NCBI GenBank assembly: GCA_964368945.1
Contig: CAYJDM010000006.1
Span: forward strand, 22,546-86,545
Reading direction: 5' to 3'
From: an uncultured Candidatus Saccharibacteria bacterium
GTDB taxonomy: Bacteria > Patescibacteriota > Minisyncoccia > Phycocordibacterales > CAIZLB01
Length of the DNA: 64,000 nt
The notes under the pieces are model-generated. The model did not search any database. It was not told the origin of the DNA and saw only the letters and a list, made by a program, of their open reading frames with translations. How positions within the stretch are numbered: the first letter of the stretch is position 1; every line of letters begins with the position of its first letter. The position numbers and the translations under genes are program-made. Shown here in pieces: positions 3,141 through 60,477 of the stretch.

Positions 3141-3141
3141 G

Positions 3142-7999: not shown

Positions 8000-10261
8000 C
8001 TACCAGCCAAACAGCGCTTTGATCGCCTTGAAAATGCTTGCTCCTCCTCCTGATGCCGCATTGCTTATGGAGAATGCCGCATCCGAATAATCAACCTTGG
8101 TTCCGGTACTAGTCGTTACTCCTATATAGATCTTGTAAATCTCGCCGCTATCATATGTGCCTGAGGGGATCGTCCATTGAATGCTGCCATTCGTTATCGG
8201 AATGCGCGTGCCTATATTCGTATAATGCCTTCCATTCTTGAAGACGGCGACCGTTGCTACATGGTCCGAAGTGAGTCCTGATGTGCTCCATGTCACGGTC
8301 AGCGTATCGCCAACCTTGTATGCTCCGCCATTATTCTGAGAGAGGATCGTGATATATCCGCCATTGGTATTTACTGGAGTTGAAGCTGCTGGAGCCTGGA
8401 TCTGTGCGGGCGCCTGAGCCGGAACAGCAACCGGCGTTGGCGTCGGCGTTGGTATTGGCGCAGGAGCAGGCGTCGGAGTCGGAGCCACCGCTGCGGCAGG
8501 AGTCGGCGGAACTACTGCCTGAGCAGCCGGCTTGGCAGCCTGGGCATTCGCGACATCGCTGATTCCAGCCACATTCTTTATCATGAAGCTGTCCCTGAAC
8601 GATTGACTTGCGGGCGGATTGCCATTATCGGTCATGGTCACCGTATATTCATACGTATCAGCATCCAATGCGCCAGGAATCGCTCTGCCATAGTATCTCA
8701 CCGGTTCTTTGAAATATACCGCGCCCGTCGCAGCATCGACCGCTAGCAGATTCGCTCGATCAGATACAGATACCGTAACCTTGTCGCCATCCGGATCTGT
8801 AGGGCTGAATTTGATAAATGGATTGGATGGGCTCGTGACGATTCCTGCGGGCAATACGGAATATCCGCTATCATCCGGCGTCCAATTCGGGCTATTCGGA
8901 TCGAGATACTGCTTGTAATAGCCGCTGGCTTTGCCGAACAGAGGCGCATGATTGAGAGAATATGAATTGAAGCAGCCCAGATCGAATTGCTTGAGCTGAT
9001 ATGTTCCGCCAAGCTCGGTCATGGCGGCATTTATTTCATTTGCAAATTTTCCAAGCAAATAGCCTGAATTCGACTCGGTATGCAAGCCCAGAAGGACAAG
9101 CTGATCCGTAATGACAGCAAGATTAGGTTGCCCAGAATCCCCGTTGACCATTTTCTCGCTCAAATTATTATTCTGATGCATGTCATGCAAAAACAATGTC
9201 GCCGACGGATCGGTGATCAGGACGCCCTGGCTCGTTACGGATTTCAACCCTCCGAACGAATGCAGCAGCGGCCGATCGTTTTTATCCAATGAAATTATGT
9301 CAAAAGGCTGATTGCCCTGATCGGTTCGATATATCTTGCTGAAAGCGGCGCTTGGCATGATCGGATAATACGCGATATCAGCAGGAAGATCGCTGTCCAA
9401 TATGCCCACCGTAATGTCATGCCCTATCGTCTTTACCGCGGTCAATGTCCTGATATACGATGCATTGTCTGGCGAAACAAAGGCCATTTTGGCACCCACC
9501 TGTACGGGATAATGCGAAGCGACGACGATATGCCTCGGCGAGATCAGCGTTCCCGCTTGTCGGTACGGGTATCCATTGCTCGGATGGCTATTGAATGGGG
9601 ATACGCCGCTGAAATCCAATGCGGCTCTCCCCTTCGCAGTCCAAACATCAGGATTTCTTTTCCACGAACCATCGAGCGTCGTGGCCATAACCGACCAGAG
9701 ATTCGATGCGGCGGCGGTCGAATTCGATGCGGCGACGCGGCTTGCCGTCTGTGCCTTCATATGCGTTGCCAGATCTTTCGAGTCCAATTCCGCGCACGAT
9801 ATCGGAGCACTGAGTATGCGCTTCGCTCTCGCTTCGGCATGCCCATTATCCGCATTGGCGAGTCGCGCATTGTCGTTCTGCGGAGCTGCAGGCGCATCGG
9901 GCTTATTGCCGGCATCCACTTTCTTTCCGACGATCCCTGCCGCATTCTGACCTACCAGCCTTTGTATGAGCGCAACGGTCTTTGGCCCGACAGAGCCGAA
10001 ACCATTCGTGGAAGCCGAGCCCGAGCATATCGCCAGGTATTTGCACTGAAGCGATTTGATGGCAGTCTCAGTCGCCTTGCCATAATATTCAGTCTCGCTT
10101 CCTTCGGCTATTACGGGCTGGCCCGCGAGACGCAATGATTTCTGAAGCTCTTTTACGTTCGGATTCTTATCCCCCAATCTCAAAGGCTTTGCATCGGCGG
10201 CAAATACCGTTAGCGGAATTATCAAGGTGATCAGCACGGTCAGGAGCAAGCTTTTTTTCAT
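8000..10261 (-). CDS. secreted multidomain protein: N-terminal peptidoglycan-binding domain, trypsin-like peptidase-like region, Pro/Thr linker, Ser/Thr-rich beta-sandwich C-terminus
   Basis: Signal peptide MKKSLLLTVLITLIIPLTVFAADA. PG_binding_1-like segment LGDKNPNVKELQKSLRLAG...YGKATETAIKSLQ. ISPRHIVVASHY and MVNGDSGQPNL resemble the His (TAAHC) and Ser (GDSGGP) motifs of S1 peptidases. PTPAAAVAPTPTPAPAPIPTPTPTP linker. C-terminal VGDTLTVTWSTSG...GSIQWTIPSG is Kre9/KNH-like. Confidence 0.55.
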   Translation of the reverse strand: MKKSLLLTVLITLIIPLTVFAADAKPLRLGDKNPNVKELQKSLRLAGQPVIAEGSETEYYGKATETAIKSLQCKYLAICSGSASTNGFGSVGPKTVALIQRLVGQNAAGIVGKKVDAGNKPDAPAAPQNDNARLANADNGHAEARAKRILSAPISCAELDSKDLATHMKAQTASRVAASNSTAAASNLWSVMATTLDGSWKRNPDVWTAKGRAALDFSGVSPFNSHPSNGYPYRQAGTLISPRHIVVASHYPVQVGAKMAFVSPDNASYIRTLTAVKTIGHDITVGILDSDLPADIAYYPIMPSAAFSKIYRTDQGNQPFDIISLDKNDRPLLHSFGGLKSVTSQGVLITDPSATLFLHDMHQNNNLSEKMVNGDSGQPNLAVITDQLVLLGLHTESNSGYLLGKFANEINAAMTELGGTYQLKQFDLGCFNSYSLNHAPLFGKASGYYKQYLDPNSPNWTPDDSGYSVLPAGIVTSPSNPFIKFSPTDPDGDKVTVSVSDRANLLAVDAATGAVYFKEPVRYYGRAIPGALDADTYEYTVTMTDNGNPPASQSFRDSFMIKNVAGISDVANAQAAKPAAQAVVPPTPAAAVAPTPTPAPAPIPTPTPTPVAVPAQAPAQIQAPAASTPVNTNGGYITILSQNNGGAYKVGDTLTVTWSTSGLTSDHVATVAVFKNGRHYTNIGTRIPITNGSIQWTIPSGTYDSGEIYKIYIGVTTSTGTKVDYSDAAFSISNAASGGGASIFKAIKALFGW

Positions 10262-11612: not shown

Positions 11613-12644
11613 TTAAATTAATTTACCGGCCTCCACAACATGTCGCACAAGCGAATGAGTGTATCCGCCCTCATTGTCATACCATGCAAGAACCTTTACC
11701 AATGTGCCATCTACGACTCGCGTCATCTTGAGGTCCGCAATCGATGCATGAGGATTGCCGATGATGTCTCGAGATACGAGCTCTTCATCAGTCGCCTCGA
11801 AGATCCCCTTCCATCGAGGCTCAGAGGCAGCGGCTCGGAGGAGCGCATTCACTTCTTCTACAGTCGTAGGCTTTGATGTGATAAAAGTCACATCGCACAA
11901 AGATCCGGTAATGACAGGAACTCGGACAGAGATGCCATCGAACTTGCCTTTGAGATCAGGGATGACTTTCGTAACCGCAATCGCAGCACCAGTAGATGAT
12001 GGCGCCATATTCATAGCAGCCGCTCGGCCTTCTCGCCAATCCTTCTTGTTCGGAGCATCCACGAGTGCCTGGCTTGCAGTATATGCATGCGTCGTATTGA
12101 GGATGGCCTTCTCGATTCCGATCTTTTCATGAAGGATTGAGATTACAGGGCTTGCGGCATTCGTCGTGCAAGATGCATTCGATGTGATGGCGCATGTCGC
12201 GAGAGCGGGCTGATTGATTCCCATCAATACCGTCGCATTCGCAATCGCTCCGGTTGGATCATCTTTGGTTGGAGCAGATACGACCACTCTCTTCGCGCCG
12301 GCTGTAATATGCGCATTGGCTTTGTCAGCCTGAGTAAAAAATCCGGTAGACTCGAGAACGATATCGACGCCGAGATCCTTCCATGGAAGAAGGGCTGGAT
12401 CTTTTTCGCTCAAATATTTCACAGTCTGACCATTGATGCTGAGCGTATTGCCTGCCTTGTCAGCTTTCACATCGAGATCGCTTCGGCCATATGCGCTATC
12501 GTATTTCATCAAGTATGCGATATTCTCGATATCCGCAAGGTCATTGATGGCAACGACTTCGAGCGTCGGCTCCATTACTGCTAGTTTGAGAAAAGCACGT
12601 CCGATTCGTCCTGCCCCATTGATTGCTACTCGTTTTTTTGTCAT
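11613..12644 (-). CDS. gap: glyceraldehyde-3-phosphate dehydrogenase, type I
   Basis: N-terminal Rossmann motif VAINGAGRIGRAFLK. Active-site SNASCTTNAASP. Confidence 0.9.
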   Translation of the reverse strand: MTKKRVAINGAGRIGRAFLKLAVMEPTLEVVAINDLADIENIAYLMKYDSAYGRSDLDVKADKAGNTLSINGQTVKYLSEKDPALLPWKDLGVDIVLESTGFFTQADKANAHITAGAKRVVVSAPTKDDPTGAIANATVLMGINQPALATCAITSNASCTTNAASPVISILHEKIGIEKAILNTTHAYTASQALVDAPNKKDWREGRAAAMNMAPSSTGAAIAVTKVIPDLKGKFDGISVRVPVITGSLCDVTFITSKPTTVEEVNALLRAAASEPRWKGIFEATDEELVSRDIIGNPHASIADLKMTRVVDGTLVKVLAWYDNEGGYTHSLVRHVVEAGKLI

Positions 12645-12703: not shown

Positions 12704-15700
12704 CTATAAACCGAGCAAAGCCCTTGTTTTTGGCCCTACGAGGCCCCACCCCGTTGATACGGGATTTCCATAGCAAATGATTACCTTGTCGCATTGGAAT
12801 TTCTTTACGGCAGTCTCAGTAGTTGGGCCGAATACATCCGTCTCTGCCGCCGCATTTGCGGGAACGTCAGGAGCAGATCCATATGGGGCAAAATATCCCA
12901 GCGCCCGCAATGCTGTTCGGAGGGTTTTTACCAAAGATCCTTTGGAGCCGAGCATGAGCGAAGGCTTCTTCGGAGCCGCGGGAGCAGGATCGTTTGCCGG
13001 CGCAGCGGCATCGCTGCCATTCGCGGCATTCACGCTCGCTCTAGTTGCGGGACCGAATCTTCCTGCTGGCGGCTGGATGCCCTTCGATGCCTGGTATTTT
13101 GCTACCGCGGCCTTCGTCGCGGCTCCGAACGATGTCGTTTCTTTTCCCGGCGAGCCTGCGCCGCTCTGCGCGACCCTGAAGCCGTTGGCATTGAGGAAGA
13201 TTTGCAGCTGGCGCACGTCTTCTCCAGTCGAGCCGACAGAAAGATCCCGGAGGAATCTGTATGCATTGCCGATGCCTGATCCGTTTACGCCTGCGGGATT
13301 CGCTCCTGCCCAAGCCGTGCATCTCTGTCCCGTCGCATTGCTGAAGATCTGGCCCACGAGGCAGACGACCGGCGCGCCAGGATTTGCTGCAGTCGATGTC
13401 GCGGTCGATGATCCGTTTCCATAAATGATCGTGATGTTGCCGCCGGATGAATATCCTCCGCCTCCGCCGGACGATCCTCCTCCCGATCCGCCAGAACCTC
13501 CGCCATTTCCAGGATCCGGTGGCGTCACCACTATGACGCCCAATTCCGGATATCCATCAGCCACCTTGAGCCAAGTCGTATTGAAGTTCCATGAATCCAG
13601 TGGGGCATTCGTATTGTTGTTCTTGAAATAGTCGGAATTGTCTTCTATGCCTGTGCAGCCTGCTGGATCAGGATCCAGGTCGCTAGTACATAATCGATTG
13701 CTCGCAAGGGTTTTGTCATAGAATGAATTAGTGAAGGTCGAAACGTCTGCCGCATACCCTGTCATGGCCCCGACATACAGATCATCGCTTGAAGATGTCG
13801 CTATCGATACCGCCGCAAAAGAGTTATTGATATTTGTTCTAGCGGATCCCACAAGGCCTGCAACACCCTGGACCACATTGGGATTAGCGACGCTTGCGAC
13901 GATGTCGCCAGCGGCATAACTTTTTGAAATTGTTGCGCCTGCCCCATCGGTACCGATGATGCCTCCGATATAATTCACATAAGACTGGGTGGAGGTAGCA
14001 TGGATTGCCCCTGTCCAATAGCTATCCGAAATCGAGAGAGGCGCTGTAACGCTACCAATAATTCCACCAACTGTATCGATATACCCGCTGTCAGCAGAAA
14101 GCATAAGGCCGACTTCAGTTGAGGTCTTGCTGATCGTCCCGCCGGTATGCTGACCAATAAGTCCCCCTATGTCTTGCAGCTCGTTGGTGCTAGTCGCATT
14201 TATGCGCCCAGACACATGCATATTCTCGAGAGACCCCTGTCCGTCAGCAGTGTAGCTATATCCGAATAAGCCGCCGACACTAGTCATTCCGCTTACCGAG
14301 ACAAGCTGCATGTCTGTTAGAACTATAATATTTTCTATTGCCTGACTCTGATTTTTACCAGCGAATCCGCCGATATAGCTACCGCCGCCGAAATCGATAG
14401 CTAATGTGCTGGATGCATAGATATCGTGAGCACTTTCTTCAAATCCAAATAATCCCGCGAAGCCTCCGATTTGGGTAACGCTGGTATCGCTTTGCAGACT
14501 CACATTGACCGTTGAGGTCGCATTCGCCATTGAGGGTCCATGCAGCTCTCCGGCAAAGCCTCCAATACCCTGAGGACCTCCGACGCTTACGATTTCAACA
14601 GACCCTGATGCAGAAATAACACTGAAGTCGGCAATGGCATATCCAAAGAGACCGCCAACTGCGTATGCGGAATTAGAAGCATTTATATGCATATCAACAT
14701 CGGCGATTGCATTGCTCATAGAAGCCCCGGCAAATTGCCCGAACAGGCTTCCGGTATAGCTGACACCCTGTCCCGTGATGTCGATACTGCCGGTCGAAGA
14801 AACTGTATGCGCGATCGCATCGTCGCTGATGAAATATCCAGCCAATCCTCCAACATATGACAGATCACTATCAGACTGCAGATTCATATCCATGGTCGAG
14901 CTAACATTTACGAAAGATAACCCCGTGAAATACCCTATGACACCTCCAAAATATGAGCCGGCGGACGAAGATGCATTGATATTTCCAGACGACGAGCTTG
15001 AAGCGATGAGGCTTTCGCCATTGTCGTTGTCGATCTGGCCGACAAGTCCGCCAGCCCCATATGCAGATCCAGAATTTGCAGCAGCTGATATCGTTCCAGA
15101 ATAGTGGCTATTGGTCAATGTCACTTTTGCCCCAGTGCCGACCCCAAGCAAGCCGCCGGCATGACCCTGATTCGACTGCACAGTTCCCACACTCGATACA
15201 TCGTCCATGACAAGATCTGACGAATTCGAATACCCGACAACTGATCCCACATATTCATTGCCAGAAACAGATCCGCTGATATTGAAATTGCGGAATACGC
15301 CGCCAGATACATATCCGAACAGACCTACGAAGTCCTCATCTGGTCTATCTATGTTCAAGCCCGAAATCGTATATCCGTTTCCGTCGAACGAGCCGGTAAA
15401 CGGATTGCCGACGGTACCCACAGGAATAAACCCTTTGCCATCATTATCAGGATCGAAGCCGGTACAATCTATATCGTTCGCCAATACAAATGAGGCATAT
15501 AAGTCTTGAGACATGGCCTGCAATTCCGTACATGTCGTGATTGACACAAGTGACTTCGCGGTAAATGACTGAATGGCTCCGTACGCTGTTCCGACCGGAT
15601 TCTTGCTATATGCCTGGAAATAATATGTGGTTCCTGTTACCAGTCCCGTTATTTCCTCTGAGAAATTCCCAGTTCCAGTAAATGCACCAAGCGTAGTTGT

Positions 15701-18700
15701 TGAAACGCCCGTCGAGAGATCGCTCACAGTGCCATATATGAAGCCATGCTCAGTGGCATCCGCGCCCATAATATCGTCTATGCTGCCATTTAGGGTCGCA
15801 CTTGAATTAGTTACAAGCGAGGCACTTCCCGTAGTTACAGACTGAACATTATTCGTCAAAAATGATAGCCTCTGCCCGTATTCTATGCCTGTGCCATTGT
15901 TGGCATATGCGCGGAAATAATATGTCGTACCTGGAGCCAATCCGGAAATATTCGCAGAATAATCTCCGACTCCGACAAATGTGCCAAGTGTAGTCGTGGA
16001 AACGTCGCTAGAGAAATCGTTCGCCGTGCTGTATGCAAATCCATGCTGAAATGCATCAATGCCACTTATGTCATATATCGAGCCGTGCAAAGTTGCGGTC
16101 GTGCCCAAAACAGAAGTTGCCGGATGCGTAAGCGGCGCAATGATAGGAGCATAGATCTTTATGCGATTATTCGAGGTATCGGCGATGTACAGAAAACCGC
16201 GAGGATCTCGGAAAATACCCCCAGGGAAGCTGAATTGGTCGGCGCCTGATCCCTGAGAACCGAAACTCTTTATAAATATTCCGTCAGGTGAGAATTGCTG
16301 AACGCGATGGTTGTATGTATCGGCTATATATGCGATGCCGGTTGAAGTAGAGACGGTCACATCTTGCGGTCCTAGAAATCCGGGACCCCCGCTTACGAAG
16401 AACTGGAATACTCCAGCTGAATTGAACTTCGATACGCGATGATTGAGGAAGGTGTCTGTTATATAAATATTGTCTTCGGCATCAATTGCGACTCCATAAG
16501 CGCCTCCGTATTGACCATTGCCGCTTCCTGAGCTGCCGATATTCGTGATAAATGATCCATTTGAATCAAATTTCATGACTTTGGTAGGACCAAGGTCCGC
16601 TACATAAATATTGCCCATGCTGTCCAAGGCGATTCCCTCGACCTGATTAAATATGCTTGCATTCCCGAATTGCGAAAGATACGCTCCATTGGCATCAAAC
16701 TTCTGAACCCTCTTATTGCCAAAGTCAGTCACATATAGATTTCCGGAATGATCGATCGCTATATAGCGAGGAGAATTGAATTCGCCATCGCCAGAGCCCG
16801 ATGTGCCGAATTGCGATAGGTAATTTCCTGCGGCATCAAATTTCTGAATGCGATTATTGCCGGTATCCACTACGAAAATATTTCCATTGGAATCCGTGAC
16901 CACGCCTCTCGGACCGCTGAACTGCCCATCACCGGAACCAGACGTTCCGAATGAAGTATTGCCATCATTATCAGCGATCGTTATGGTGACCGATGAAACC
17001 GCCGCCTCATTGAAATCCGGATCTGAAGATGCGGCAGTTCCTGTGACAGTAACTGTCTTGATATTATTGTAAATACTGTCATCAATTGCAGAAACCGTTA
17101 CCGTCTGGGGCTGGTCCCAATCGCCTGATGTGAATGTGAGCATTTGCGGAGAGATTGATGCACCAGACCCCGCAATCGGAGTTGATGTAGCAAGCGTGAT
17201 CACGACATCGCTAGAAGGCTGCTGCTCCAGTACTATGTCGAATGAGTCATCGGATCCCCCTTCAGTAAGCGATATATCGGTCGGTGTGACGCTGACAGGA
17301 GAATTTCCAAATACCGGATAGTCGTTCGTCACGGCCTTCCATACATCAACGAAATCCCATGAGCTCATTGGCTCATTTATATTATTGCCCTTGAAATATT
17401 CTGAGTTGCCCGTAATGGCGGTACAACCGGATGGATCTGATTGATCGCTGCCGCTGCAATAATCTTGGCCGCTTAGTGTTTTGTCATAAAAGTTATTCGT
17501 AAGAACGGTGCCATTATCTCCTATAAAGGCACCGACATTCGTAGCAGGATCAACAGAATTCATAGAGAATGCAACAGCCGCAAATGAATCCGCGATATGG
17601 TCTCCAGACATTGAACCTGCCAAACCGCCGACGCTCTCGATTACAGAGCTTGAATCGAGAGCGATATTTCCGACAGTATAGCTTCGATTGATTGAAGAAG
17701 CTCCTCCTATTCCGATAATGCCACCGATATCCGAAACATAGGAGAGCTCAGAAGTCAGATCCATATCGCCCGTCCAATATGCATCAGAAATAGCGACATC
17801 GTAGTTACTGTCAAAGCCGATAAGTCCGCCAATGCGATCTATGTGTCCGTCTGAAACAATGTGAATGTCAACCGAAGAATTGCTTCGCTCAAAAGTCGCC
17901 CCGACATAATATCCAAAGATGCCAGCCACATCCTCGACTCCAATATCAGGATCACCCGAAGTTGATTCGATATCGATGCTTCCAGACGAGGAGACATTTT
18001 CCGCAGATGCACTTGGTTCAGTCCAGTATCCAACCAATCCGCCAATATGATTGGAATTCGAATCAGACACGATGCTTATGATTGCAGATGAGCTGCTATT
18101 GTTTATTGACGCACCAGCGTATTCACCTACGAGTCCTCCGATATCGCTTCCAGATCCTGTAAAATTGAAATTCATATTGCCCGATACTGAGCTTGATTCT
18201 ATATAACTGCCAGACGCATTAACACCTCCTATCAAACCTCCGAAACACGATGCGCCCGTCTGAGTTACCACTTCAATATTTCCTGAATAATGACCATTAG
18301 TAACCGTGATAATGGACACGCCTGTTCCTACCAACCCTCCGACACAGTCGGCAGAACCAGTAATCGCAACGGAGCTGTTCACATTTTCGATTACGAGATC
18401 CCCTCCATTTTGATTTGAATATCCGACGAGAGATCCGATCACGCCAGATCCGCTTATCGATCCGGCAATAGTCACATTGCTGAATGATCCTCCCGTCACA
18501 ACTCCGAACAGACCCACGTTTTCTTCCTCAGGCCGATTTATTGTCAGGTTCGAGATGGTGTGGCCGTTTCCATCGAATGACCCTCTAAACTCATCGCTTA
18601 GATTTCCGACAGGAATGAATCCCTTGCCATTATTCTCAGGATCGAATCCCGTACAATCGATATCGTTCGAAAGCGTATAATCTTGCGTTAGATCATAGGC

Positions 18701-19093
18701 CATCGCCTGGAGCTCGCTGCAATTCGTGATCGCTGCGTTAACGGGGTCCCCATCATCGGCGATCTCTACCGTGACAAGGCTCACAAGTCCGTCGAAAGAT
18801 ACATCGGACGAAGTCGACGAAGCCGTAATGGTGATAGTTCGAGTACCCGACTGAATGGCATCATCTATCGCGGAAACCGTAACCGTCTGAGGCTGATCCC
18901 AATCGCTTGGCGTGAAAGTCAGCAGTTCAGGCGATACGGTCGCACCCGAACCATTGCCCGGAGTCGAAGTCGCAAACGTTATCACGACATCGTCGGTCGG
19001 CGCTTGCTTGAGCTTGAGCGTGAAAGTATCGCTAGATCCTTCTTCGATTCCAAGATCAGTTTTGGAAAACTTGAACAAAGGATCTCGAAGCAT
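12704..19093 (-). CDS. giant cell-surface protein, C-terminal 2129 aa portion: Calx/Ig-like domains, 2 GLUG-motif beta-helix modules, 6 NHL repeats, 2 Ig-like domains, Gly linker, 2 C-terminal peptidoglycan-binding domains
   Basis: NHL repeats ([34 protein letters not shown] and five more). Repeated G-L-x-G blocks (VGGLVG, IGGLIG) after a conserved CSELQAM...NDIDCTGFD...[15 protein letters not shown] module, present twice. [17 protein letters not shown] linker. Two PG_binding_1-like domains at the C-terminus ([22 protein letters not shown]..., [23 protein letters not shown]...). There is no signal peptide at this ORF's own N-terminus, so it probably continues from the upstream 971 aa ORF (see findings). 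Confidence 0.85.
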   Translation of the reverse strand: [2129 protein letters not shown]

Positions 19094-19226
19094 CGGATAA
19101 TCATCCGTATCAGTAACCGTGACCCAGACGCTGCTGAAATTCCATTGATCGAGCGGCGGATTAGTGCTATTGCCCTTGAAATACCCTGAATCGTTCTCGA
19201 TCGCCGTGCAGCCCGCAGGATCAGGA

Positions 19227-22103
19227 TCATCGATGATCGTTGCAGAAATCCTGGCCGCTTAGTGTTTTATCAAAAAATGTATTATCAAAGCTCGCATAAT
19301 CGGAACCCGTAACCGCGCCGATATTCGAAGTCGGATTCACAGAAACGACCGTTATGCCCACGGCCGAGAACGAATCGACATATTGCGCCTGAATATCATA
19401 TCCTGTCATTCCTCCTATGTTTGAAACCGCATCAGCGGAATCAAGCCACATCTGTCCGGCAGCATATGTCCGCGTGAATATCGATGGATTGGTATCATGG
19501 TACCCAATCATTCCTCCCACGAATGCGATATATGCGCCAGTGCCTGTGGCATTGATCTGGCCACTCCAGTAGCTATCCGTGAAAGAAAGCGCCATCGACG
19601 ATTGGCCTACGAAGCCGCCTACATATGCCACTTCGGCATCCGAATCGAGATGCATCTCGACCGAAGATCTGCTGCGCGCAAATGAAATCTCACTGGCTTC
19701 GCCTTCAGCGAATCCCGTCATGCCGCCGATATCATAGATTTCCGCTGAATCGATCGTGATGCTTCCCAATGCCTGGACGTCATCTATATTGCCTTCGGGA
19801 TATATATATGAATATCCGTTCAGACCGCCGATATACGTAACGGCTCCGCTCGGAGCCTGGATCTCGATATCGGCATCGGCTATAGAATCCGTAATCGAGC
19901 CGGCCCCATAGTCTCCGAACAGGCCTCCTATGAGCGACACGGGGCCATTCGACTCTGTATGTATGGTCCCTGAATATGAGACGCCATCAACGATTCCCAC
20001 TTCATTGTAAAATGCGCCGACCAAGCCTCCGACATTCGCAACCTGGCCGCTCGCATCGGTTATGATGCTTATATCCATGGTCGAGCTGCTATTCGTGATC
20101 GAGGCTCCTTCGAAATAAGCGACCAAGCCTCCCACATCGCTAGACTGCGATGCATTCACATGATTAAAAACAATCGCGCCAGAAGCCGAGCTGTCCGAGA
20201 TGGTGCTGCCGCTTCCACCGCCGCCTGCAGAAAGTCCGCCTATCGAATCAATCTGGCCTCCGTCTCCATCGACTGTTATCGTACCGTCATAGTGGACATT
20301 CGTAAGCGTGGAATCAGGACCGAGATCCATGCTCGCTATCACTCCTCCGACGCCGGTGCCATGCCCAGTCACGTCAGCGGAAGAGAAAACATTCTCGACC
20401 ACAAGATCGTTCGTATCGGAAAGCCCGATAAGGGAACCGACATTGCCAAGCCCTTCCACGTTTCCGGCAAGGCTCACATCCTTGAATGTTCCGCCCTGCA
20501 CATATCCGAACAATCCTACATAATACTCATCAGGCCGTGCAATCGTAAGATTCGAAATAGTGTGTCCATTTCCATCGAATGATCCGGTAAACGGAATGCT
20601 ATCGTCTCCAACAGGCCGGAACCCCTTGCCATCATTGTCGGCATCGAAGCCGGTGCAGTCGATATCGTTCGAAAGCTCATAAGACGCTCCGAGACCTTCG
20701 GACATCGCCTGCAGCTCAGCGCAGTTCGCGATCGGCAGTGCTTCATTGTCCGAAACAGTGACGACGACATTGGAAATGATAACGCCGTTGAAATCACTAT
20801 CCGCTGAAGAGACAGACGCCGAGACATCTACGGTTCTCTGAGGATTTCCGACTCCATCATCAATACCCGTAACGGTTACGGTTTGCGGCTCATCCCAATT
20901 TCCAGGCATGAAGGTAAGCACCTCTGGGGAAATTGACGCGCCTGCCCCAACGCCAGGAGTCGAAGTCGAAAGAGTCACGATTACGTCATTTGCAGGCTGT
21001 CGATCGAGCACGTACGTAAATGTCGAAGAATCTCCTTCCTCGACGGAAAGCGCATTTACAGATGGGCTCACAAGCGTCGGGATGAATTTTTGAATACGCC
21101 CATTGTTCCCATCGGTCACGTATATATTGTTGGCGGCATCAAAAGCGGTCGCTTGCCCACTATTGCCAAATTCCCCATCACCGGATCCATCTGATCCGAA
21201 CTCAAATAGATATTTTCCGTCGTTGGTAAACGCTCTAATGCGCGCATTTGAGGAGCTTGTAACGTAGACAGTTCCATAATTATCTATTGATACGTCTTGA
21301 GCCCTGCCCAAGTCCGCATTTGATTGAGCGTCGAGACCGGGCTGACAATCTGAAGTACATACCTGATACTCCCTGTTTCCGTCGATAACGCCTTGGCCAA
21401 AGGTCAGAATAAAATTACCGGCGGAATCGAATTTCTGGACGCGATGAGCATTGTATTCGGTGACGAAGATGTTTCCAGAAGCATCTACTGCTATGCCTTG
21501 CGCGGCCGAAAACTGATTATTGCCGAATTGAGAAATATAATTCCCATCAGAATCAAACTTTTGAATCCGTGAATTATCGCTATCAACAACGAGAATGTTG
21601 CCAGACCCGTCAATCGCGATATCATGCACGAATCCGAATTCGCCGTCGTCGCTGCCTGCAGGGCCGCCGATATAGGAAACAAAATCGCCATTTGAATCGA
21701 ATTTCTGGACGCGACTATTGAGCTCGTCAGCCACGTATACATTCCCGGAAGAATCCACTGCTATCCCCTGAGGGCCGTTGAACTGGCCATCGCCGGAACC
21801 AAAGGAGCCGAATTGAGAAATGTATGTCCCCGTAGGATCGAATTTCTGCACCCGATGAGAAGTGCTGTCAGTGACATATATATTCCCTGCGCTATCCAAT
21901 GCGATGCCGAACGGACGATCGAACTGCCCGTCACCGGAACCCGCTGAACCGAATTGGCTCGCATACTGCATTCCTGCTTTGACTTCGTTTGGGGAGAAAA
22001 GCGTACTGACTAAACCTATTACCATGACTGCAACTAGAGCAAAACGCATCGGATATGCCAAAACCCTTCGCTTTGATTTTTTTAAATTAAAGAGTTTCAA
22101 CAT
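19227..22103 (-). CDS. giant cell-surface protein, N-terminal portion: signal peptide, 6 NHL repeats, Calx/Ig-like domain, GLUG module; ends in a premature stop in the middle of a conserved module
   Basis: Start placed at the ATG at 22103 ([43 protein letters not shown], a signal peptide). The ORF-track start at 22142 is GTG. NHL repeats ([33 protein letters not shown] and others). The same CAELQAM...DIDCTGFD...[11 protein letters not shown] GLUG module as the downstream ORF. The ORF stops at ...[15 protein letters not shown], in the middle of the motif that continues in the other frame. Confidence 0.8.
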   Translation of the reverse strand: [958 protein letters not shown]

Positions 22104-22217
22104 ACTTAAAAATACTGAGTTCGCCAAAGCGAGGGACAGCACATATATGCCAAATTATATCATGCGGGAGGCATGATTCTCAGTAAAACGTTGAAAACTA
22201 TGGCTATTTGCGTATTT

Positions 22218-23879
22218 TTACGCAATTCCGTTTACAAATGCGATTACGGCAGCCTTGGCAGCTGCAGGATTCACCGAGCCCTTGCTCGCCTTCATGATTT
22301 GGCCGACGAAAAACATCAGCGCGGCTTCCTTGCCCGCCTTATAGTCCGCCACTACGGATGGATGTGCGGCTACGAGCTCGGCGATCATCTTATTCAGAGC
22401 TTCTGGATCGTTTTTCTGGATCAAGCCATGGGCTTCGGCGATTTCCTTGCTTGTTTTCTTGATGATTTCTTCACGTGCGATGCGAGACAATGGAGCGGCG
22501 GAGTCTTTTTTGTTTTCTTCGATGTCGGGCACGCTGATATCTGCATATGCGAAGAAAAGCATGGCCAATGCATCCTTGGCGCCTCGAGACGATAGCTCCC
22601 CTGCCTTGATCATGAGGATGATATCCGCAAAATTTTGAACCGGTATCGAAAACGCCGCATCGGGATCACTTGACCCGCTTAGAGCGCCATATTTCTTGAT
22701 AAGTCCCGCGAGGTCAGACGTCACATAGTTCGTCGCAAGCTTGATGAGCTCTTTCTGCTCCGGCATATCCTTCAGCGCATCAGTGACAAGCTCGAAAAAG
22801 TTCCTGAAGCCTGTATTCTGAACGAACATTTCAGCGTCTTCAGCCTTCATTTCAAACAGGTTCACGAAACGATCGCGAACCTGCCAAGGCAGAGTCGGCA
22901 TGCCTGCATCGATCTCATGAGGCTGGAATTCCGGTATTTCGCTTATGAAAAGCTTTGGCAGATCAGGATCTGGGAAGTACATATAGTCATGCGAGTTTTC
23001 TTTCGCTCGCTGGCTGATGGTTTTGCCTGTGGCTTCGTCGAAGCCTCGCGTCTCCTGGACGAGCTTCTTTGTGGCAAGGGCAGCCTTCCATGCGACAGAA
23101 TCAGTTGGAGAAACCCCCTCTGCGAGTACCGCCTCGATCGCGGCGATATGTCGCTGGATTTCGAATTCGATAGATCGCTCTGCTGATCGGAATGAGTTGA
23201 TATTCTTGACCTCGGTCTTCACGCCGAAAGTCGCGAAGGCTTCTTTGGCGACGGGCTTCTGTGCAGCAAGCGCCTCATCGATGAAACGATGCGCAGCAGG
23301 ATCGGTCGATACCGAAATATTCACCTCGACGCGCATTTCGCCTTTTTCCATATTGGCCTCGCCTGCTCCTAGATATCGCAAGAGCAATTGCAGCTCCCGC
23401 CCGAAATCTCCGGCAGTCTTGGCATCGCGAATGACCGGCTCAGTCACGAGCTCCATGAGCGGCACTCCTGAGCGATTGAAATTCACGAGGCTGAAATCGC
23501 CCTTGTCATGAGACGAAGAAGCCGTATCCTCCTCAAGATGGATTCGCGTCAGCTCGACGCCTCGCAATGAGCCGCCAGTGATGAGAGGATGCGCGAACTG
23601 GCTGATCTGATATGCCTTTGGAATATCTGGATAAAAATAATTCTTTCGATCCCATTCAGTGAAGTCCGCTACGTTGCCGCCTATCGCCGTACCGATGCGC
23701 ACCATATGCTTGATCGCCTGCTTATTGAGGACGGGCAAAGTTCCGGGATGCCCCATGCAGATCGCGCAGACATTGAAGTTGGGTCGCTCTTCGTCCGGAT
23801 TATTTCGGCATGAGCAAAACATCTTGGACTGAGTCTTGAGCTCGGCATGGATTTCGAGGCCGATTACGGGATAATACAT
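22218..23879 (-). CDS. gatB: aspartyl/glutamyl-tRNA(Asn/Gln) amidotransferase subunit B
   Basis: MYYPVIGLEIHAELKTQSKMFCSC...NVCAICMGHPGTLP is the GatB N-terminus. Start placed at the ATG at 23879. In-frame ATGs at 23936 and 23987 would add unconserved residues. Confidence 0.9.
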   Translation of the reverse strand: MYYPVIGLEIHAELKTQSKMFCSCRNNPDEERPNFNVCAICMGHPGTLPVLNKQAIKHMVRIGTAIGGNVADFTEWDRKNYFYPDIPKAYQISQFAHPLITGGSLRGVELTRIHLEEDTASSSHDKGDFSLVNFNRSGVPLMELVTEPVIRDAKTAGDFGRELQLLLRYLGAGEANMEKGEMRVEVNISVSTDPAAHRFIDEALAAQKPVAKEAFATFGVKTEVKNINSFRSAERSIEFEIQRHIAAIEAVLAEGVSPTDSVAWKAALATKKLVQETRGFDEATGKTISQRAKENSHDYMYFPDPDLPKLFISEIPEFQPHEIDAGMPTLPWQVRDRFVNLFEMKAEDAEMFVQNTGFRNFFELVTDALKDMPEQKELIKLATNYVTSDLAGLIKKYGALSGSSDPDAAFSIPVQNFADIILMIKAGELSSRGAKDALAMLFFAYADISVPDIEENKKDSAAPLSRIAREEIIKKTSKEIAEAHGLIQKNDPEALNKMIAELVAAHPSVVADYKAGKEAALMFFVGQIMKASKGSVNPAAAKAAVIAFVNGIA

Positions 23880-24124
23880 GCGGCCATTTGACTCGATTGC
23901 ATATTTATTTTCTATTGATTCTGAGGCTGCATTCATGGCTTTGATGGGCGACTTGCTAGAATTTTGATGGCTTTTTAATGGTTGCATAATAGCATAAAGA
24001 AAAGAAAAAGCCCGCTCACGGGACTCTTCCTTTTTCGCTTTGCAGCGACCTCACTAATGAGGAGAAAGAGTCCCGCGTCGGGCTCTATGAGGGTTGGGCC
24101 GCGTCACGGCCCTGTTGTCGAACC

Positions 24125-29055: not shown

Positions 29056-31065
29056 TTACCAAGGGGTTACCGTGAACGTAGGGCTTTCAGCGTCGATATA
29101 CGAAGTATTGTTTGCTGGATATGTTCCATAGCCCAGGCCGAAGACCTTGAGGAAGTAGCCCGACTTGAGCTCTTCCTTCGTCTTGCCGGTTCGCGTCACG
29201 AATCGATTGACTATCTCATTCGTTATCTTGACCGGAGTGCCAGTCGCAGTGACGGTCGTCTGAGGAACCATGACTTCCCACTGTCCAGGAGAAAGCTTAT
29301 TCTGAAGCTGAACCTGGAATCCATAATGGCGGAACTTTGCGAGATTTCCGAATACCCAAGTCATATTGATATCAGGAGATGTGCTTGCATATGCGAATCC
29401 CGCGACCGGAGCAGTTACTCGGAGATATGGATTCGTGCTCGAAGCTTCCGCAGCCGTAGCGCCGGTAGTTCCTGTCGTCCCGGTTGTTCCAGTTGATGCG
29501 GTGTCGTATGCGAATACGAATTTGTCTCCATTATTTCTTGTCAAAACCATTCGGCCATTTTCGAGAGAAACCGTCGCGCCTGATGTCATCATGGCTATGA
29601 ATGAAGTTTCGGCAGGGGCGATGATAGCTGCCGTGCAGGCCATCATCGTAGATGTGAGATTAGGGGCAGTGATCACATTGCCCGTTCGAGTGAATGAGCC
29701 CGAGATCGAATTGCAGATATTCGCAGAAAGCGTTCCATTTCCTGTTCCATTGCTTGTGAATGTCAACGACGGAGTCTGCATAGGCGTAGTGAAGTCTCCA
29801 TTGAATGAAAGGAGCTTGAATGGAGTCGATGCGAGATATACGAGATTCGTCCCAGTATTGCCAGTTCCTGTATTCGTATTGGTATTCGCAGGCGCATTCG
29901 GATTCGTCACCGTGATCACGCCGCTTTCATCATATGCGAGCGCGCTCCACTGCGTTGGGCTTCCGCTCGTCTCGCCTGCCGGTCGCAAATATACTCGGAC
30001 CTTGTACGTTCCACCTGGAATATCAGAAGGCACAGGAATGGTAGTCGTCACATTAGAGACCGGATTATTCGGAGTGAATGATCCTAGAGAATATCCGCCT
30101 GAAACAGAATCATAGTAAGAGCCATCGCCTGACAAAGCCGAGCCAGACTGCGGGATCAGATAGAATGACAATGAATATACCTTGTCGGATGAGATCGTGC
30201 TCTGATATGCAAAGCTTCCTCCCGCGGCAACCGTTCCCGATGTCGGCGAAGTGATATCGATCATGGCAGCGCCAGTGCTGCCCGTATTTCCTCCATTCGC
30301 AATATCGAAGACCGTGAATTCTGAGCTGAAAGCCTGTCGGCACTGGATGCTCGAAAGCGCTGTACAAGAAGGGGTCACTTTTATCTTATATGTGAAATCC
30401 TTATTCAATGCGGAAGACAAAGTGAATGTCGAAGTTTTTCGTCCTGCTGCAGTCGCATATACCGTGCCGAATCGCTGGAATACGGTATCGCCTCGCACCA
30501 AGTCCACTGCATATGACATCCATGTCGGATTGCTCGTAGGATTCGGAACCGGATTATCAATCGATACGGTAATAGTTCCTCCGGCCGTATATCGATCATA
30601 TCGCGTCGGAGAGCTGACGATGATTCCGAGGGCTGGATTCGAAACCGTAGACCCTGTCGATCCGGTGCTGCCCGTTCCGGCAGTAGGATCAGTTGGCACT
30701 ACGCTAGAGTTGGGATTACAGCTGATTTCTCGAATCTTTTCTCGAGTCAAAGATCCCACATATCCTGCAGGGCTAGCCGGGATATTGTACTGTCGCTGGA
30801 ATGCGCTGGCCGCATTTCGCGTCTGAGGGCCAAAGAGGCCATTCGGAGTCGCAGCGAGATAGCCCGCGCTTTTCAGAAAGTTCTGGAGAACCGTAACCGC
30901 TCCGCCTGTAGAGGCATCAGTCATCGGATATTTCAAATTGACCGCGATATTCGCACAAGCCATGGTCGAAGCCGTCTGCGCATTCGCAGAAGTCGCTCCA
31001 GCCGTGGCGCTAATAAAGAATGCTAATAAAAATACTAGTGTCTTGTAAACGTGAACTTTTTTCAT
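29056..31065 (-). CDS. secreted protein with N-terminal peptidoglycan-binding domain and repeated Ser/Thr-rich beta-sandwich domains
   Basis: Signal peptide MKKVHVYKTLVFLLAFFISATAGATSANA. PG_binding_1-like segment YPMTDASTGGAVTVLQNFLKSAGYLAATPNGLFGPQTRNAASAFQ. TGSTGSTGST and TGTTGTTGTTG linkers. Repeated Kre9/KNH-like domains. Confidence 0.6.
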   Translation of the reverse strand: MKKVHVYKTLVFLLAFFISATAGATSANAQTASTMACANIAVNLKYPMTDASTGGAVTVLQNFLKSAGYLAATPNGLFGPQTRNAASAFQRQYNIPASPAGYVGSLTREKIREISCNPNSSVVPTDPTAGTGSTGSTGSTVSNPALGIIVSSPTRYDRYTAGGTITVSIDNPVPNPTSNPTWMSYAVDLVRGDTVFQRFGTVYATAAGRKTSTFTLSSALNKDFTYKIKVTPSCTALSSIQCRQAFSSEFTVFDIANGGNTGSTGAAMIDITSPTSGTVAAGGSFAYQSTISSDKVYSLSFYLIPQSGSALSGDGSYYDSVSGGYSLGSFTPNNPVSNVTTTIPVPSDIPGGTYKVRVYLRPAGETSGSPTQWSALAYDESGVITVTNPNAPANTNTNTGTGNTGTNLVYLASTPFKLLSFNGDFTTPMQTPSLTFTSNGTGNGTLSANICNSISGSFTRTGNVITAPNLTSTMMACTAAIIAPAETSFIAMMTSGATVSLENGRMVLTRNNGDKFVFAYDTASTGTTGTTGTTGATAAEASSTNPYLRVTAPVAGFAYASTSPDINMTWVFGNLAKFRHYGFQVQLQNKLSPGQWEVMVPQTTVTATGTPVKITNEIVNRFVTRTGKTKEELKSGYFLKVFGLGYGTYPANNTSYIDAESPTFTVTPW

Positions 31066-59631: not shown

Positions 59632-60477
59632 ATGAGCGATACAGCGAATACCGACAATAAGCCGAATATTTCGGCAATCATACCGACGAGAAATGGCCAT
59701 GCAACGATCGCGCGGGCAATTCAGAGCATGCTGGATCAGACTTTGGTTCCGTCTGAGATCTTGATCATTTCTGACAATGATGTGATAGACGCTGCGGGCA
59801 AGATCGCATCCGATGAGCTGCATGCCGTCATCGCTAACAATTTTGCAAATGAAAGTTTCTCAGAAGACGCAAGAGGCAAAATCCGCATAATCCAAGGACC
59901 ATCGAAAGGCCCCGGAATTGCCCGCAATCTCGGAGTCGAAAAGGCATCGAACGATCTGATCGCCTTTCTCGACGATGACGATATATGGAGCGATAAGCAG
60001 AAGCTCGAGAAGCAGGCCGCTTATCTGGCAAACCACCCTGAGATAGATGTCGTCGGAGCGGAGACAGCTTTTTTCATAAGAGAGAATGGCGAAAAATTCC
60101 AGACAATAACACAGCCAACAGATCCTGAGGCGGTACGCGATCAGATGCTTGTCCGCAATCCCCTCATCACATCTTCCGTCTTGATGCGCCGACAGGCATT
60201 CATCGATGCGAAAGGCTTCAAGCCAATGTATCTCGCCGAAGACTATGACCTCTGGCTGCGCATGAATCGCAAGCGAAATCGAATCTCAAATGTACCCGGC
60301 ACATCGATCGAATATACCGTACGCGAAGGCAGCGCTTCCCAGAAAAGAAAAGTCCGCATGGCATATGCGGTCGCTTCTCTCGTATTCAAGAATGCATTTT
60401 TTTATCCAAATAAATTCGCAATCGTAAAAGCGAAATGGCCAATCTTCAAGAGATTGCTAGCTGAGAAGCTTCGATAA
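59632..60477 (+). CDS. glycosyltransferase family 2
   Basis: ISAIIPTRNGHATIARAIQSMLDQT (GT2 N-terminus), AFLDDDDIW (DxD). Confidence 0.7.
   Translation: MSDTANTDNKPNISAIIPTRNGHATIARAIQSMLDQTLVPSEILIISDNDVIDAAGKIASDELHAVIANNFANESFSEDARGKIRIIQGPSKGPGIARNLGVEKASNDLIAFLDDDDIWSDKQKLEKQAAYLANHPEIDVVGAETAFFIRENGEKFQTITQPTDPEAVRDQMLVRNPLITSSVLMRRQAFIDAKGFKPMYLAEDYDLWLRMNRKRNRISNVPGTSIEYTVREGSASQKRKVRMAYAVASLVFKNAFFYPNKFAIVKAKWPIFKRLLAEKLR

What the first reader, a model, noticed from the sequence alone, without database searches (positions are those of the whole stretch)
12704..22142. Two giant adhesin-like ORFs (971 aa and 2129 aa) are very likely one surface-protein gene of about 3,100 aa, split by a single-nucleotide frameshift near nt 19232
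The upstream ORF (19227-22142) has the signal peptide but stops at ...FDKTLSGQDFCNDHR. This falls exactly inside a module that elsewhere in the downstream ORF reads FYDKTLSGQDYCSGSDQSDPSGCTAITGNSEYFKGNN...SWDF and FYDKTLASNRLCTSDLDPDPAGCTGIEDNSDYFKNNN...SWNF. Translating the minus strand in the frame of the downstream ORF from 19246 downward gives SATIIDDPDPAGCTAIENDSGYFKGNSTNPPLDQWNFSSVW, which continues in-frame into the annotated start MLRDPLFKFSKTD at 19093. So the conserved module is completed in the other frame. Joining the frames with a one-base deletion around 19232-19235 reproduces the paralogous Cys-to-Cys spacing (C-x10-C). The downstream ORF also lacks any signal peptide of its own. 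The cause is either an assembly or sequencing error in a repeat-rich gene, or a genuine frameshift that truncates the adhesin or makes it phase-variable.
Basis: seen in the sequence. Interest (0 to 1): 0.7.

Follow-up and report, generated by a model that had tools for sequence, protein, structure and literature searches.

The report
Frameshift-split giant cell-wall-anchored surface protein gene
Two adjacent large genes in this uncultured Patescibacteria genome are one ~3,145-residue wall-anchored surface-protein gene broken by a single extra base; the break is reproduced in a second assembly, so it is most likely a recent, ordinary inactivating mutation.

Summary
On the minus strand, ORF A (22142-19227) ends FFDKTLSGQDFCNDHR*. 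The +1 frame continues with ..DDPDPAGCTAIENDSGYFKGNSTNPPLDQWNF.., which matches the two paralogous module ends of ORF B (E 5e-19 and 6e-16). Removing any one base in 19241-19230 gives a single 3,145-codon ORF. Its layout is signal peptide, NHL propeller, Ig-like domain and GLUG beta-helix, then further copies of these modules, two FN3-like domains, and two C-terminal peptidoglycan-binding domains. The break lies about 48 residues before the end of beta-helix 1, inside its C-terminal cap, which AlphaFold2 models confidently for the paralogous helix 2. The closest homologues (P0128, P0151, P0002) read through this point in one frame and then carry a PG_binding_1 anchor. An independent Logan assembly of run ERR4405439 is 100% identical across the junction, so an assembler error is unlikely. 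The site has no simple repeat, slippery codon or stimulatory RNA structure, so neither phase variation nor programmed frameshifting is supported. The best reading is a real, recent +1 insertion, probably an extra A at 19241/19240. As encoded, it leaves a secreted, unanchored fragment of about 940 aa and an untranslated or mislocalised 2,129-aa remainder. The case is ordinary and of low interest.

The parts
22154..22183 (-). Promoter-like site (CTGAGA, 18-nt spacer, TG-extended TATAAT) just upstream of ORF A
   Evidence: Consensus scan, 10 of 12 matches with a TG before the -10 box. This is a pattern match only.
19227..22142 (-). ORF A: the 5' part of the gene. It is 971 codons from GTG 22142. 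Likelier starts are ATG 22103 or ATG 22049, the latter giving the 940-aa NCBI protein P0001. It encodes a signal peptide, NHL propeller 1 (21974-21063), Ig-like domain 1 (21062-20733) and GLUG beta-helix 1 up to the first cap cysteine (20732-19242).
   Evidence: NHL 139 bits, Glug 29.8 bits; P0001 100% identical.
19230..19241 (-). Frameshift interval. It holds 10 nt (AACGATCATC) between the Cys codon TGC (19244-19242) and GATGATCCT, where paralogues and homologues have 9 nt (three codons). The best guess for the extra base is an A at 19241/19240 (TGC-A-ACG).
   Evidence: Codon-level alignment with modules 2 and 3, P0002 and P0128. The residue after the first Cys is T in 4 of 6 homologous caps.
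19227..19229 (-). Premature TGA stop of ORF A, created by the frameshift
   Evidence: TGA is the rarest stop codon in the window (3 of 33 genes).
19225..19238 (.). Perfect 14-nt palindrome GATCATCGATGATC that covers most of the frameshift interval and the stop codon
   Evidence: There are 13 such palindromes in the window against about 4 in shuffles, so a chance overlap with the site has a probability of about 0.005-0.01. Its relevance is unproven.
19094..19258 (-). Stranded remainder of the beta-helix-1 cap in the +1 frame (55 codons: ..DDPDPAGCTAIENDSGYFKGNSTNPPLDQWNFSSVW..DDYP). This frame has no ATG, GTG or TTG before 19093, so the stretch cannot be translated by ordinary initiation.
12704..19093 (-). 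ORF B: the 3' part of the gene (2129 codons). It encodes Ig-like 2 (19081-18737), GLUG helix 2 (18736-17306), Ig-like 3 (17305-16967), NHL propeller 2 (16966-16112), two FN3-like domains (16111-15542), GLUG helix 3 (15541-13532), a Gly-rich linker (13531-13247) and two PG_binding_1 domains (13246-12707).
   Evidence: (NHL 125.8 bits, PG_binding_1 64.4 bits with 2 stretches), and for the structure of helix 2.
19238..19283 (-). A 46-nt stretch encoding NTFFDKTLSGQDFC that is 83% identical in DNA to the equivalent stretch of module 2 (17452-17497). The similarity ends at the frameshift site.
   Evidence: (repeat family D7).

Best explanation
ORF A and ORF B are the two halves of one ancestral gene for a cell-surface protein of about 3,145 residues in an uncultured Patescibacteria (Paceibacteria-like) bacterium. 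The intact protein would be exported through an N-terminal signal peptide. It would be held on the cell wall by two C-terminal PG_binding_1 domains and would display two NHL beta-propellers, three GLUG beta-helices, three Ig-like domains and two FN3-like domains. This is a plausible binding or adhesion array, but that function is inferred from domain content only. A single-base insertion lies within 19241-19230 and is most probably an extra A after the Cys codon at 19244-19242. It shifts the frame 4 codons before a TGA stop, inside the disulphide-containing C-terminal cap of beta-helix 1. As the sequence stands, the cell makes a secreted fragment of about 940 aa. That fragment lacks the helix cap, has one unpaired cysteine and has no wall anchor. 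The distal two thirds has no signal peptide and no start codon covering the stranded cap remnant, so it is either not made or made in the wrong compartment. ORF B is still open for 2,129 codons with all modules intact, which suggests the lesion is evolutionarily very recent. Shown here: the split, the homology in the other frame, the single-ORF state of homologues, and the reproducibility of the sequence in a second assembly. Inferred: that the mutation is real in the cells, its recency, and its consequences for the protein.
For: The frame-B peptide matches both paralogous cap modules (E 5e-19 and 6e-16). A one-base deletion gives a 3,145-codon ORF, and GLUG1 then aligns with GLUG2 through the junction (E 9e-74). 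The closest homologues all read FC/LC-T-x-x-D-D-P-D-P-[AS]-G-C...W[DN]F in a single frame, then continue for at least 177 residues into a PG_binding_1 anchor. These are P0128 (1249 aa, 47% identity over query residues 323-937), P0151 (1437 aa, 44%) and P0002 (757 aa, 48%). The AlphaFold2 model of the paralogous helix 2 has pLDDT 94.4 and pTM 0.93. It shows a beta-helix whose C-terminal cap is confidently folded (10-residue block means of pLDDT 83-94 over model residues ~417-480), and the equivalent of the break falls at about residue 430. The fold matches the GLUG beta-helices of 3n6z and of streptococcal IgA1 protease (E 2.4e-5 and 7.9e-5). The Logan contig from ERR4405439 is 100% identical to window 20555-12005 with no gaps, junction included. 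The same strain, also at 100% identity, is present in ERR4405440 and ERR4405441. Other long genes in the window are intact, for example a 992-aa SecA with all its domains, so the assembly is not indel-ridden. Frame B has no start codon between 19258 and 19093, and no promoter-like site lies on the minus strand between the ORFs.
Against: Reads could not be inspected. The Logan contig may derive from the same reads as the MAG, so it excludes an assembler artefact but not a systematic read error or a minority intact allele. No true orthologue was found, either syntenic or above 50% identical, so the state of this exact locus in sister strains is unknown. A fully intact 6.4-kb ORF downstream of the frameshift is what a recent mutation predicts, but it is equally what a consensus error predicts. 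Most genes in this genome lack Shine-Dalgarno motifs (only 4 of 33 have one), so the absence of one before ATG 19093 does not rule out independent translation of ORF B.
Confidence: 0.72

Rival explanations
1. The extra base is a sequencing or consensus artefact, or a minority allele fixed by the assembler. On this reading the real genome carries an intact 3,145-codon gene.
For: ORF B and the 55-codon stranded cap remnant have no further lesions. The gene is repeat-rich at the protein level. Only one sample series (ERR4405439-41) contains this strain, so the two assemblies may share their reads.
Against: Two different assemblers give an identical sequence over 8.5 kb. The site is not a homopolymer, since the longest run there is AA. 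DNA-level repeats near the site are short and imperfect: 46 nt at 83% identity, with a 17-nt longest exact match. That is too little to cause a chimeric join, and the flank is not identical to any other module. No other split gene was seen in the window.
Confidence: 0.17
2. The shift is a regulated or reversible switch. It could be programmed +1 ribosomal frameshifting at CGA-UGA, or phase variation through reversible indels at the 14-nt palindrome. Either would yield both a released short form and an anchored long form.
For: A +1 shift anywhere in the 29-nt overlap restores a full-length protein with the correct Cys spacing. A perfect 14-nt palindrome sits on the site, with a chance overlap of about 0.005-0.01. 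Quasipalindromes are known hotspots for template-switch frameshifts (PMC7202029).
Against: There is no homopolymer or short tandem repeat at the site. No P-site codon can re-pair in the +1 frame. CGA is the commonest Arg codon here (13 per 1000), so it is not a 'hungry' codon. The local RNA fold is no better than shuffled sequence (z = -0.11). All homologues and both paralogous modules are in frame at this point, so the shift site is not conserved. The repair best supported by homology puts the extra base 1-2 nt outside the palindrome.
Confidence: 0.04
3. The two ORFs are now separate, functional genes: a secreted NHL-GLUG protein, and an independently translated protein of 2,129 aa.
For: NCBI's annotation lists both as proteins (P0001 and P0038). 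Initiation without a Shine-Dalgarno motif is the norm in this genome, so ATG 19093 could in principle be used.
Against: ORF B has no signal peptide, yet it consists of extracytoplasmic-type domains and a peptidoglycan anchor. Its ATG lies at the very end of the beta-helix-1 cap, in the conserved closing ...YP.L motif (DDYPML). Fifty-five codons of cap homology lie upstream of it, with no start codon in that frame. ORF A ends in the middle of a domain with an unpaired Cys. No homologue ends at this point.
Confidence: 0.05

Closest known systems
P0128 (1249 aa, JGI metagenome 3300043411) and P0151 (1437 aa): uncharacterised metagenomic surface proteins
   Same: They share the N-terminal order signal peptide, NHL propeller, Ig-like domain(s), GLUG beta-helix and a two-Cys cap (FYDKT..C-T-G-V-D-D-P-D-P-S-G-C..W-D-F), followed by a Cys-loop and a PG_binding_1 anchor. 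They are 44-47% identical to ORF A over residues 323-937.
   Different: They are single-unit proteins with one helix, read in one frame. The window gene has the unit expanded to three helices and two propellers, and it is frameshifted in the first cap. They are not syntenic with the window locus.
GLUG beta-helix domain of M26 IgA1 proteases (S. pneumoniae IgA1 protease, PDB 6xja/7jgj; putative IgA1 protease BACOVA_03286, PDB 3n6z)
   Same: The GLUG-motif repeats match Pfam PF07581 (29.8 bits in ORF A). The predicted right-handed beta-helix matches 3n6z (Foldseek E 2.4e-5, TM 0.60 normalised to the target) and 6xja (E 7.9e-5).
   Different: No M26 catalytic domain was detected. Peptidase_M26_N reaches only 11.8 bits against a cut-off of 27.7. 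Sequence identity is 15-22%. The protein is therefore not an IgA1 protease.
Frameshift-disrupted (pseudogenised) large surface-protein genes in bacterial genomes and MAGs
   Same: A single indel splits a long multi-repeat exported protein into an ORF bearing the signal peptide and an ORF bearing the anchor, with homology continuing in another frame.
   Different: There is no simple-sequence tract of the kind that makes classical contingency loci reversible. The downstream part is still entirely intact.
Giant multi-domain NHL/Ig-like surface proteins of uncultured bacteria
   Same: Thousands of proteins of 2,000-7,900 aa with the same NHL and Ig-like modules were found (25,211 representatives at E <= 1e-30; the top hits are 2,000-7,900 aa).
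   Different: None is more than about 55% identical, and none is an orthologue of this locus.

Membership tests
Frameshift-split gene (single ancestral ORF) | Homology to the same domain continues in a different reading frame across the stop codon | tested here: met
   The frame-B peptide matches the paralogous caps at E 5e-19 and 6e-16.
Frameshift-split gene (single ancestral ORF) | One indel restores a single uninterrupted ORF with the expected domain spacing | tested here: met
   A 1-nt deletion gives a 3,145-codon ORF with C-x10-C restored. GLUG1 then aligns with GLUG2 through the junction at E 9e-74.
Frameshift-split gene (single ancestral ORF) | Homologues encode the region in one frame | tested here: met
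   P0002, P0128, P0151, P0024 and both ORF B modules have intact caps followed by at least 177 residues.
Frameshift-split gene (single ancestral ORF) | The sequence is correct at read level | tested here: inconclusive
   The independent Logan assembly is identical across the junction. The reads themselves cannot be accessed with these tools.
Phase-variable contingency locus | A homopolymeric or short tandem repeat tract at the frameshift site | tested here: not met
   The sequence is TGCAACGATCATCGATGATCC. The longest mononucleotide run is AA, and the only repeats are two copies each of the trinucleotides ATC and GAT, which cannot change the frame.
Phase-variable contingency locus | Tract-length heterogeneity within the population | not testable with these tools
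   This needs read-level data from ERR4405439-41.
Programmed +1 ribosomal frameshift (prfB-like or Ty-like) | A slippery or hungry P/A-site context with a stimulatory element, conserved among homologues | tested here: not met
   CGA is the commonest Arg codon. No codon can re-pair in the +1 frame. The RNA fold z-score is -0.11. Homologues are in frame at this point.
Quasipalindrome-associated template-switch mutation | The mutation converts an imperfect inverted repeat into a perfect one | tested here: inconclusive
   A perfect 14-nt palindrome covers most of the shift interval. However, the ancestral sequence is unknown, and the repair best supported by homology (an extra A at 19241/40) lies outside the palindrome. 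The mechanism is described in PMC7202029.
GLUG-motif beta-helix (Pfam PF07581) | GLUG repeats above the Pfam gathering score and a beta-helix fold | tested here: met
   ORF A scores 29.8 bits against a cut-off of 20.5. The AF2 beta-helix has pLDDT 94.4. Foldseek matches 3n6z and 6xja.
M26 IgA1-specific metallopeptidase | An M26 catalytic metallopeptidase domain | tested here: not met
   Pfam finds no Peptidase_M26 catalytic domain. Peptidase_M26_N reaches only 11.8 bits against a cut-off of 27.7.
NHL-repeat beta-propeller (PF01436) | Multiple NHL repeats above the gathering score | tested here: met
   ORF A scores 139.4 bits with 5 stretches, and ORF B scores 125.8 bits with 4 stretches.
PG_binding_1 wall-anchored protein (PF01471) | PG_binding_1 domain(s) above the gathering score in an exported protein | tested here: met
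   There are two stretches, scoring 64.4-72.2 bits against a cut-off of 23, at the C-terminus of ORF B. The export signal is present only on ORF A (by inspection, and by alignment with the N-termini of P0128 and P0151).
Calx-beta / bacterial Ig-like domain | A Pfam match above the gathering score for the ~110-aa repeated domain | tested here: not met
   Only sub-threshold hits were found: Big_9 at 20 bits against 23.6, and LapA at 16.9 bits against 27. It is called 'Ig-like' here by analogy only.

The most novel reading that the evidence does not exclude
The single-base offset is not a dead lesion but a switch. Candidates are +1 recoding at CGA-UGA, or reversible indels promoted by hairpin formation at the 14-nt palindrome GATCATCGATGATC. 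Either would let this episymbiont-type bacterium alternate between a shed 940-aa NHL-GLUG protein and a wall-anchored 3,145-aa form, without a classical simple-sequence repeat.
Probability: 0.03. Interest if true: 0.6.

Novelty: new member of a known kind. Interest (0 to 1): 0.2.

Why it matters
The main value is for annotation. The two NCBI proteins (940 aa and 2,129 aa) should be read as one disrupted gene, and the 2,129-aa 'protein' should not be counted as an independent, signal-less giant protein. Biologically, the locus documents a lineage-specific modular surface protein (NHL, Ig-like, GLUG, PG-binding) in Patescibacteria. That is a group in which large surface proteins are suspected to mediate attachment to hosts. 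The locus may also record a recent loss of the anchored form in one natural population. None of this is surprising to a specialist.

Tried and rejected
(1) I looked for orthologues to see whether the locus is a single ORF elsewhere. Peptide-pattern scans of the GTDB species representatives and of JGI metagenomes found no relative of the junction region. Eighty Patescibacteria loci fetched through the upstream neighbour GatB (at most 60% identity) had no homologous giant gene next to GatB. No orthologue was available.

(2) An exact-protein look-up of P0001 and of GatB found nothing on record. GAPDH retrieved only short contigs from ERR4405440 and ERR4405441, and these do not reach the junction.

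(3) A short 83-aa cap query against the word-indexed protein database returned nothing, so that search was wasted.

(4) A literature search for the run accessions returned nothing. A search for giant Patescibacteria surface proteins returned nothing specific.

(5) A PDB sequence search with GLUG module 2 gave no hit. Only the fold comparison worked.

(6) Assembly chimera between paralogous modules was rejected. The longest DNA repeat at the site is 46 nt at 83% identity.

(7) Alternative genetic codes (UGA as a sense codon) were rejected. Frame A has further stops (TGA, TAG and TAA) just downstream, and the homology is clearly in the other frame.

(8) The absence of a Shine-Dalgarno motif before ATG 19093 was dropped as an argument, because only 4 of 33 genes here have one.

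Full report
**Observation.** On the minus strand there are two long ORFs: 22142..19227 (971 codons from a GTG) and 19093..12704 (2,129 codons). ORF A ends ...NTFFDKTLSGQDFCNDHR, followed by TGA at 19229-19227. The frame offset by +1 is open from 19258, after a TAA at 19261-19259. It reads AARISATIIDDPDPAGCTAIENDSGYFKGNSTNPPLDQWNFSSVWVTVTDTDDYP and runs directly into the ATG of ORF B.

These are residues 1807-1846 (26 of 40 identical, E 5e-19) and residues 550-593 (25 of 46 identical, E 6e-16). Nothing else scores better than E about 1.

**Repair and architecture.** Deleting one base in the interval gives a single ORF of 3,145 codons. Self-comparison and Pfam give the following layout, numbered from the GTG:

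| Residues | Feature |
|---|---|
| 1-56 | Signal-peptide region |
| 57-360 | NHL propeller 1 |
| 361-470 | Ig-like domain 1 |
| 471-1018 | GLUG beta-helix 1 |
| 1021-1135 | Ig-like domain 2 |
| 1136-1612 | GLUG helix 2 |
| 1613-1725 | Ig-like domain 3 |
| 1726-2010 | NHL propeller 2 |
| 2011-2200 | Two FN3-like domains |
| 2201-2870 | GLUG helix 3 |
| 2871-3145 | Gly-rich linker, then two PG_binding_1 domains |

With the repair, helix 1 aligns with helix 2 from its first residue to its last, straight through the junction (471-1018 against 1138-1611, E 9e-74). The break lies at about residue 968-971, roughly 48 residues before the end of module 1.

**Structure.** An AlphaFold2 model of the intact paralogue, helix 2 (ORF B residues 118-600), was built with 24 aligned sequences. 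It has mean pLDDT 94.4 and pTM 0.93. It is a long beta-helix ending in a short helix (FYDKTL) and a C-terminal cap that carries the two cysteines and the W-x-F motif. The 10-residue block means of pLDDT across the cap are 83-94. The position equivalent to the break is about model residue 430. ORF A therefore stops inside a folded unit, four residues after the first of two cap cysteines.

Foldseek places the model with the GLUG beta-helices of PDB 3n6z (putative IgA1 protease BACOVA_03286, E 2.4e-5) and of streptococcal IgA1 proteases (6xja, E 7.9e-5). There is no M26 catalytic domain, so the protein shares a binding or scaffold module with those enzymes and not their activity.

**Homologues.** The exhaustive HMMER search with ORF A found 25,211 representatives at E <= 1e-30, and many of the top hits are 2,000-7,900 aa long. 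This kind of giant modular NHL/Ig-like protein is therefore common in metagenomes.

Two hits match the Ig-like plus GLUG part almost end to end. P0128 (1249 aa) is 47% identical over query residues 323-937. P0151 (1437 aa) is 44% identical over residues 335-937. P0002 (757 aa) is 48% identical.

All three read the junction region in one frame. P0128 has LCTGVDDPDPSGCTAIENNTSYF..WDF, P0002 has FCTGADDPDPAGCTAIENDSAYFKGN..WNF, and P0151 has FCTGDGGEVEGCTGI..WDF. Each then continues for 177-252 residues into a Cys-loop and a PG_binding_1 anchor. Six two-Cys caps were found in five proteins of the retrieved set, and all are followed by at least 177 residues. No homologue ends where ORF A ends.

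**Where the extra base is.** Between the Cys codon TGC (19244-19242) and GAT GAT CCT the window has 10 nt (AACGATCATC). Modules 2 and 3, P0002 and P0128 have 9 nt. Any single deletion in this stretch restores C-x10-C, so spacing alone does not locate the extra base.

The residue after the first Cys is Thr in 4 of 6 homologous caps. P0128 reads TGT ACC GGT GTC GAT GAT CCT. Removing one A from TGC-AA-CG gives TGC ACG ATC ATC GAT GAT CCT, which translates to C-T-I-I-D-D-P. This fits the consensus best and lets both frames' homology run right up to the extra base. My best guess is therefore an A duplication at 19241/19240 rather than a change at 19232-19235. This rests on a small sample and is an inference.

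**A palindrome at the site.** A perfect 14-nt palindrome, GATCATCGATGATC (19238-19225), covers most of the interval and the stop codon. The window has 13 perfect 14-mers of this kind against about 4 in shuffles. A chance overlap with a 10-nt target is therefore about 0.005-0.01.

Quasipalindrome template switching is a known source of frameshifts that perfect an inverted repeat (PMC7202029). However, the homology-favoured repair puts the extra base just outside the palindrome, so this remains an open alternative for the origin of the mutation.

**Real or artefact?** The window comes from a 93,925-bp NCBI contig. An independent assembly, the Logan contig ERR4405439_141128 (8,551 nt), is 100% identical to window 20555-12005 with no gap, and it includes the junction. 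The same strain, also at 100% identity, is present in ERR4405440 and ERR4405441, but those contigs do not reach the junction.

The site is not a homopolymer. The nearest DNA repeat is 46 nt at 83% identity to module 2, which is too weak to cause a chimeric join. Other long genes in the window are intact, including a 992-aa SecA with all domains, GatB, Obg and GAPDH.

An assembler error is therefore unlikely, and a systematic read error is improbable. I could not see the reads, and the two assemblies may share them. I leave about 0.17 for a consensus or minority-allele artefact.

**Switch hypotheses.** Classical phase variation needs a simple-sequence tract, and there is none.

Programmed +1 frameshifting is not supported, for four reasons:
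- No codon in the 29-nt overlap can re-pair in the +1 frame.
- CGA, which precedes the stop, is the commonest Arg codon here (13 per 1000).
- The local RNA folds no better than shuffles (z = -0.11).
- The offset is absent from every homologue and paralogue.

Independent expression of ORF B cannot be excluded on initiation signals, because only 4 of 33 genes here have a Shine-Dalgarno-like motif. However, ORF B has no signal peptide and consists of extracytoplasmic-type domains plus a peptidoglycan anchor. Frame B has no start codon upstream of 19093 that could cover the 55 stranded cap codons. No promoter-like site lies on the minus strand between the ORFs.

**Organism and context.** GatB, immediately upstream of ORF A, is at most 60% identical to GatB of Patescibacteria/Paceibacteria MAGs. 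The flanking genes are housekeeping genes: Obg and GatB upstream, GAPDH downstream. None of 80 related loci carries a homologous giant gene beside GatB. The source genome and its close relatives are absent from the GTDB representatives and from the JGI contigs. The gene is therefore lineage-specific, and the locus could not be compared with an orthologue.

**Mechanism and verdict.** The ancestral product would be exported by its signal peptide, tethered to peptidoglycan by its C-terminal PG_binding_1 pair, and would project propellers and beta-helices outward. A role in adhesion is plausible for an episymbiotic lineage, but it rests on domain content only.

The +1 insertion truncates this to a released fragment of about 940 aa with an uncapped helix and no anchor. 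The remaining 2,129 codons are intact, which argues that the event is very recent, or, less likely, not real.

The finding is a correct and useful annotation catch, but it is biologically ordinary: a new member of a known kind. Interest is about 0.2.

Noticed in passing
window-wide: start regions of 33 genes: Only 4 of 33 well-defined genes have a Shine-Dalgarno-like motif within 20 nt of the start. Seven have a TATAAT-like box within 40 nt, for example the GAPDH gene (11613-12644), the PG-binding gene ending at 31065, and ORF A. This suggests short-leader or SD-independent initiation in this genome.
   Followed up: partly
window-wide; 14-nt palindromes starting at 5831, 6969, 10692, 13945, 16756, 19225, 19646, 24214, 25868, 45105, 57267, 62834, 63142: Perfect 14-nt palindromes are about 3 times more frequent than in shuffles (13 against about 4). 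GATC is about 2 times over-represented (508 against 249 expected). The palindromes at 6969 (CGATTTCGAAATCG) and 57267 (CGAAATCGATTTCG) are permutations of each other.
   Followed up: no
window 19238-19283 versus 17452-17497: The stretch coding FYDKTLSGQD[F/Y]C in GLUG modules 1 and 2 is 83% identical in DNA over 46 nt, with a 17-nt exact core. Downstream of the frameshift, module 1 instead resembles module 3, P0002 and P0128 (DDPDPAGCTAIEN). This is a mosaic pattern whose breakpoint coincides with the frameshift. It may be the trace of an old intragenic gene conversion.
   Followed up: partly
window 8000-10261 (-) and 29056-31065 (-): Two further proteins carry a PG_binding_1 domain, here N-terminal: a 753-aa protein (22.5 bits, just under the cut-off) and a 669-aa protein that also has a META domain. 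Peptidoglycan tethering appears to be a recurrent way of anchoring surface proteins in this organism.
   Followed up: no
window-wide stop codons: TGA is the rarest stop codon: 3 of 33 genes, against 17 TAA and 13 TAG. One of the three TGA stops is the premature stop of ORF A.
   Followed up: no
window 22218-23987 (-): GatB is unusually long at 589 aa. The GatB_N profile of 277 positions is spread over residues 41-350, which implies an insertion in the catalytic domain.
   Followed up: no
window 60457-63051 (-): An 864-aa protein has weak matches to type IV secretion coupling proteins and to HerA (TrwB_AAD_bind, T4SS-DNA_transf, TraG-D_C, DUF87). It is a possible conjugation or competence-type ATPase.
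   Followed up: no
tails of ORF B (window ~13330-13280), P0128 and P0151: A conserved small Cys-loop, C-x2-G-x2-F-[SN]-x2-T-G-x2-C, precedes the PG_binding_1 domain in ORF B (CLVGQIFSNATGQRC), P0128 (CQAGHLFNILTGARC) and P0151 (CLPGYLFSPSTGKSC). It has no Pfam assignment.
   Followed up: no
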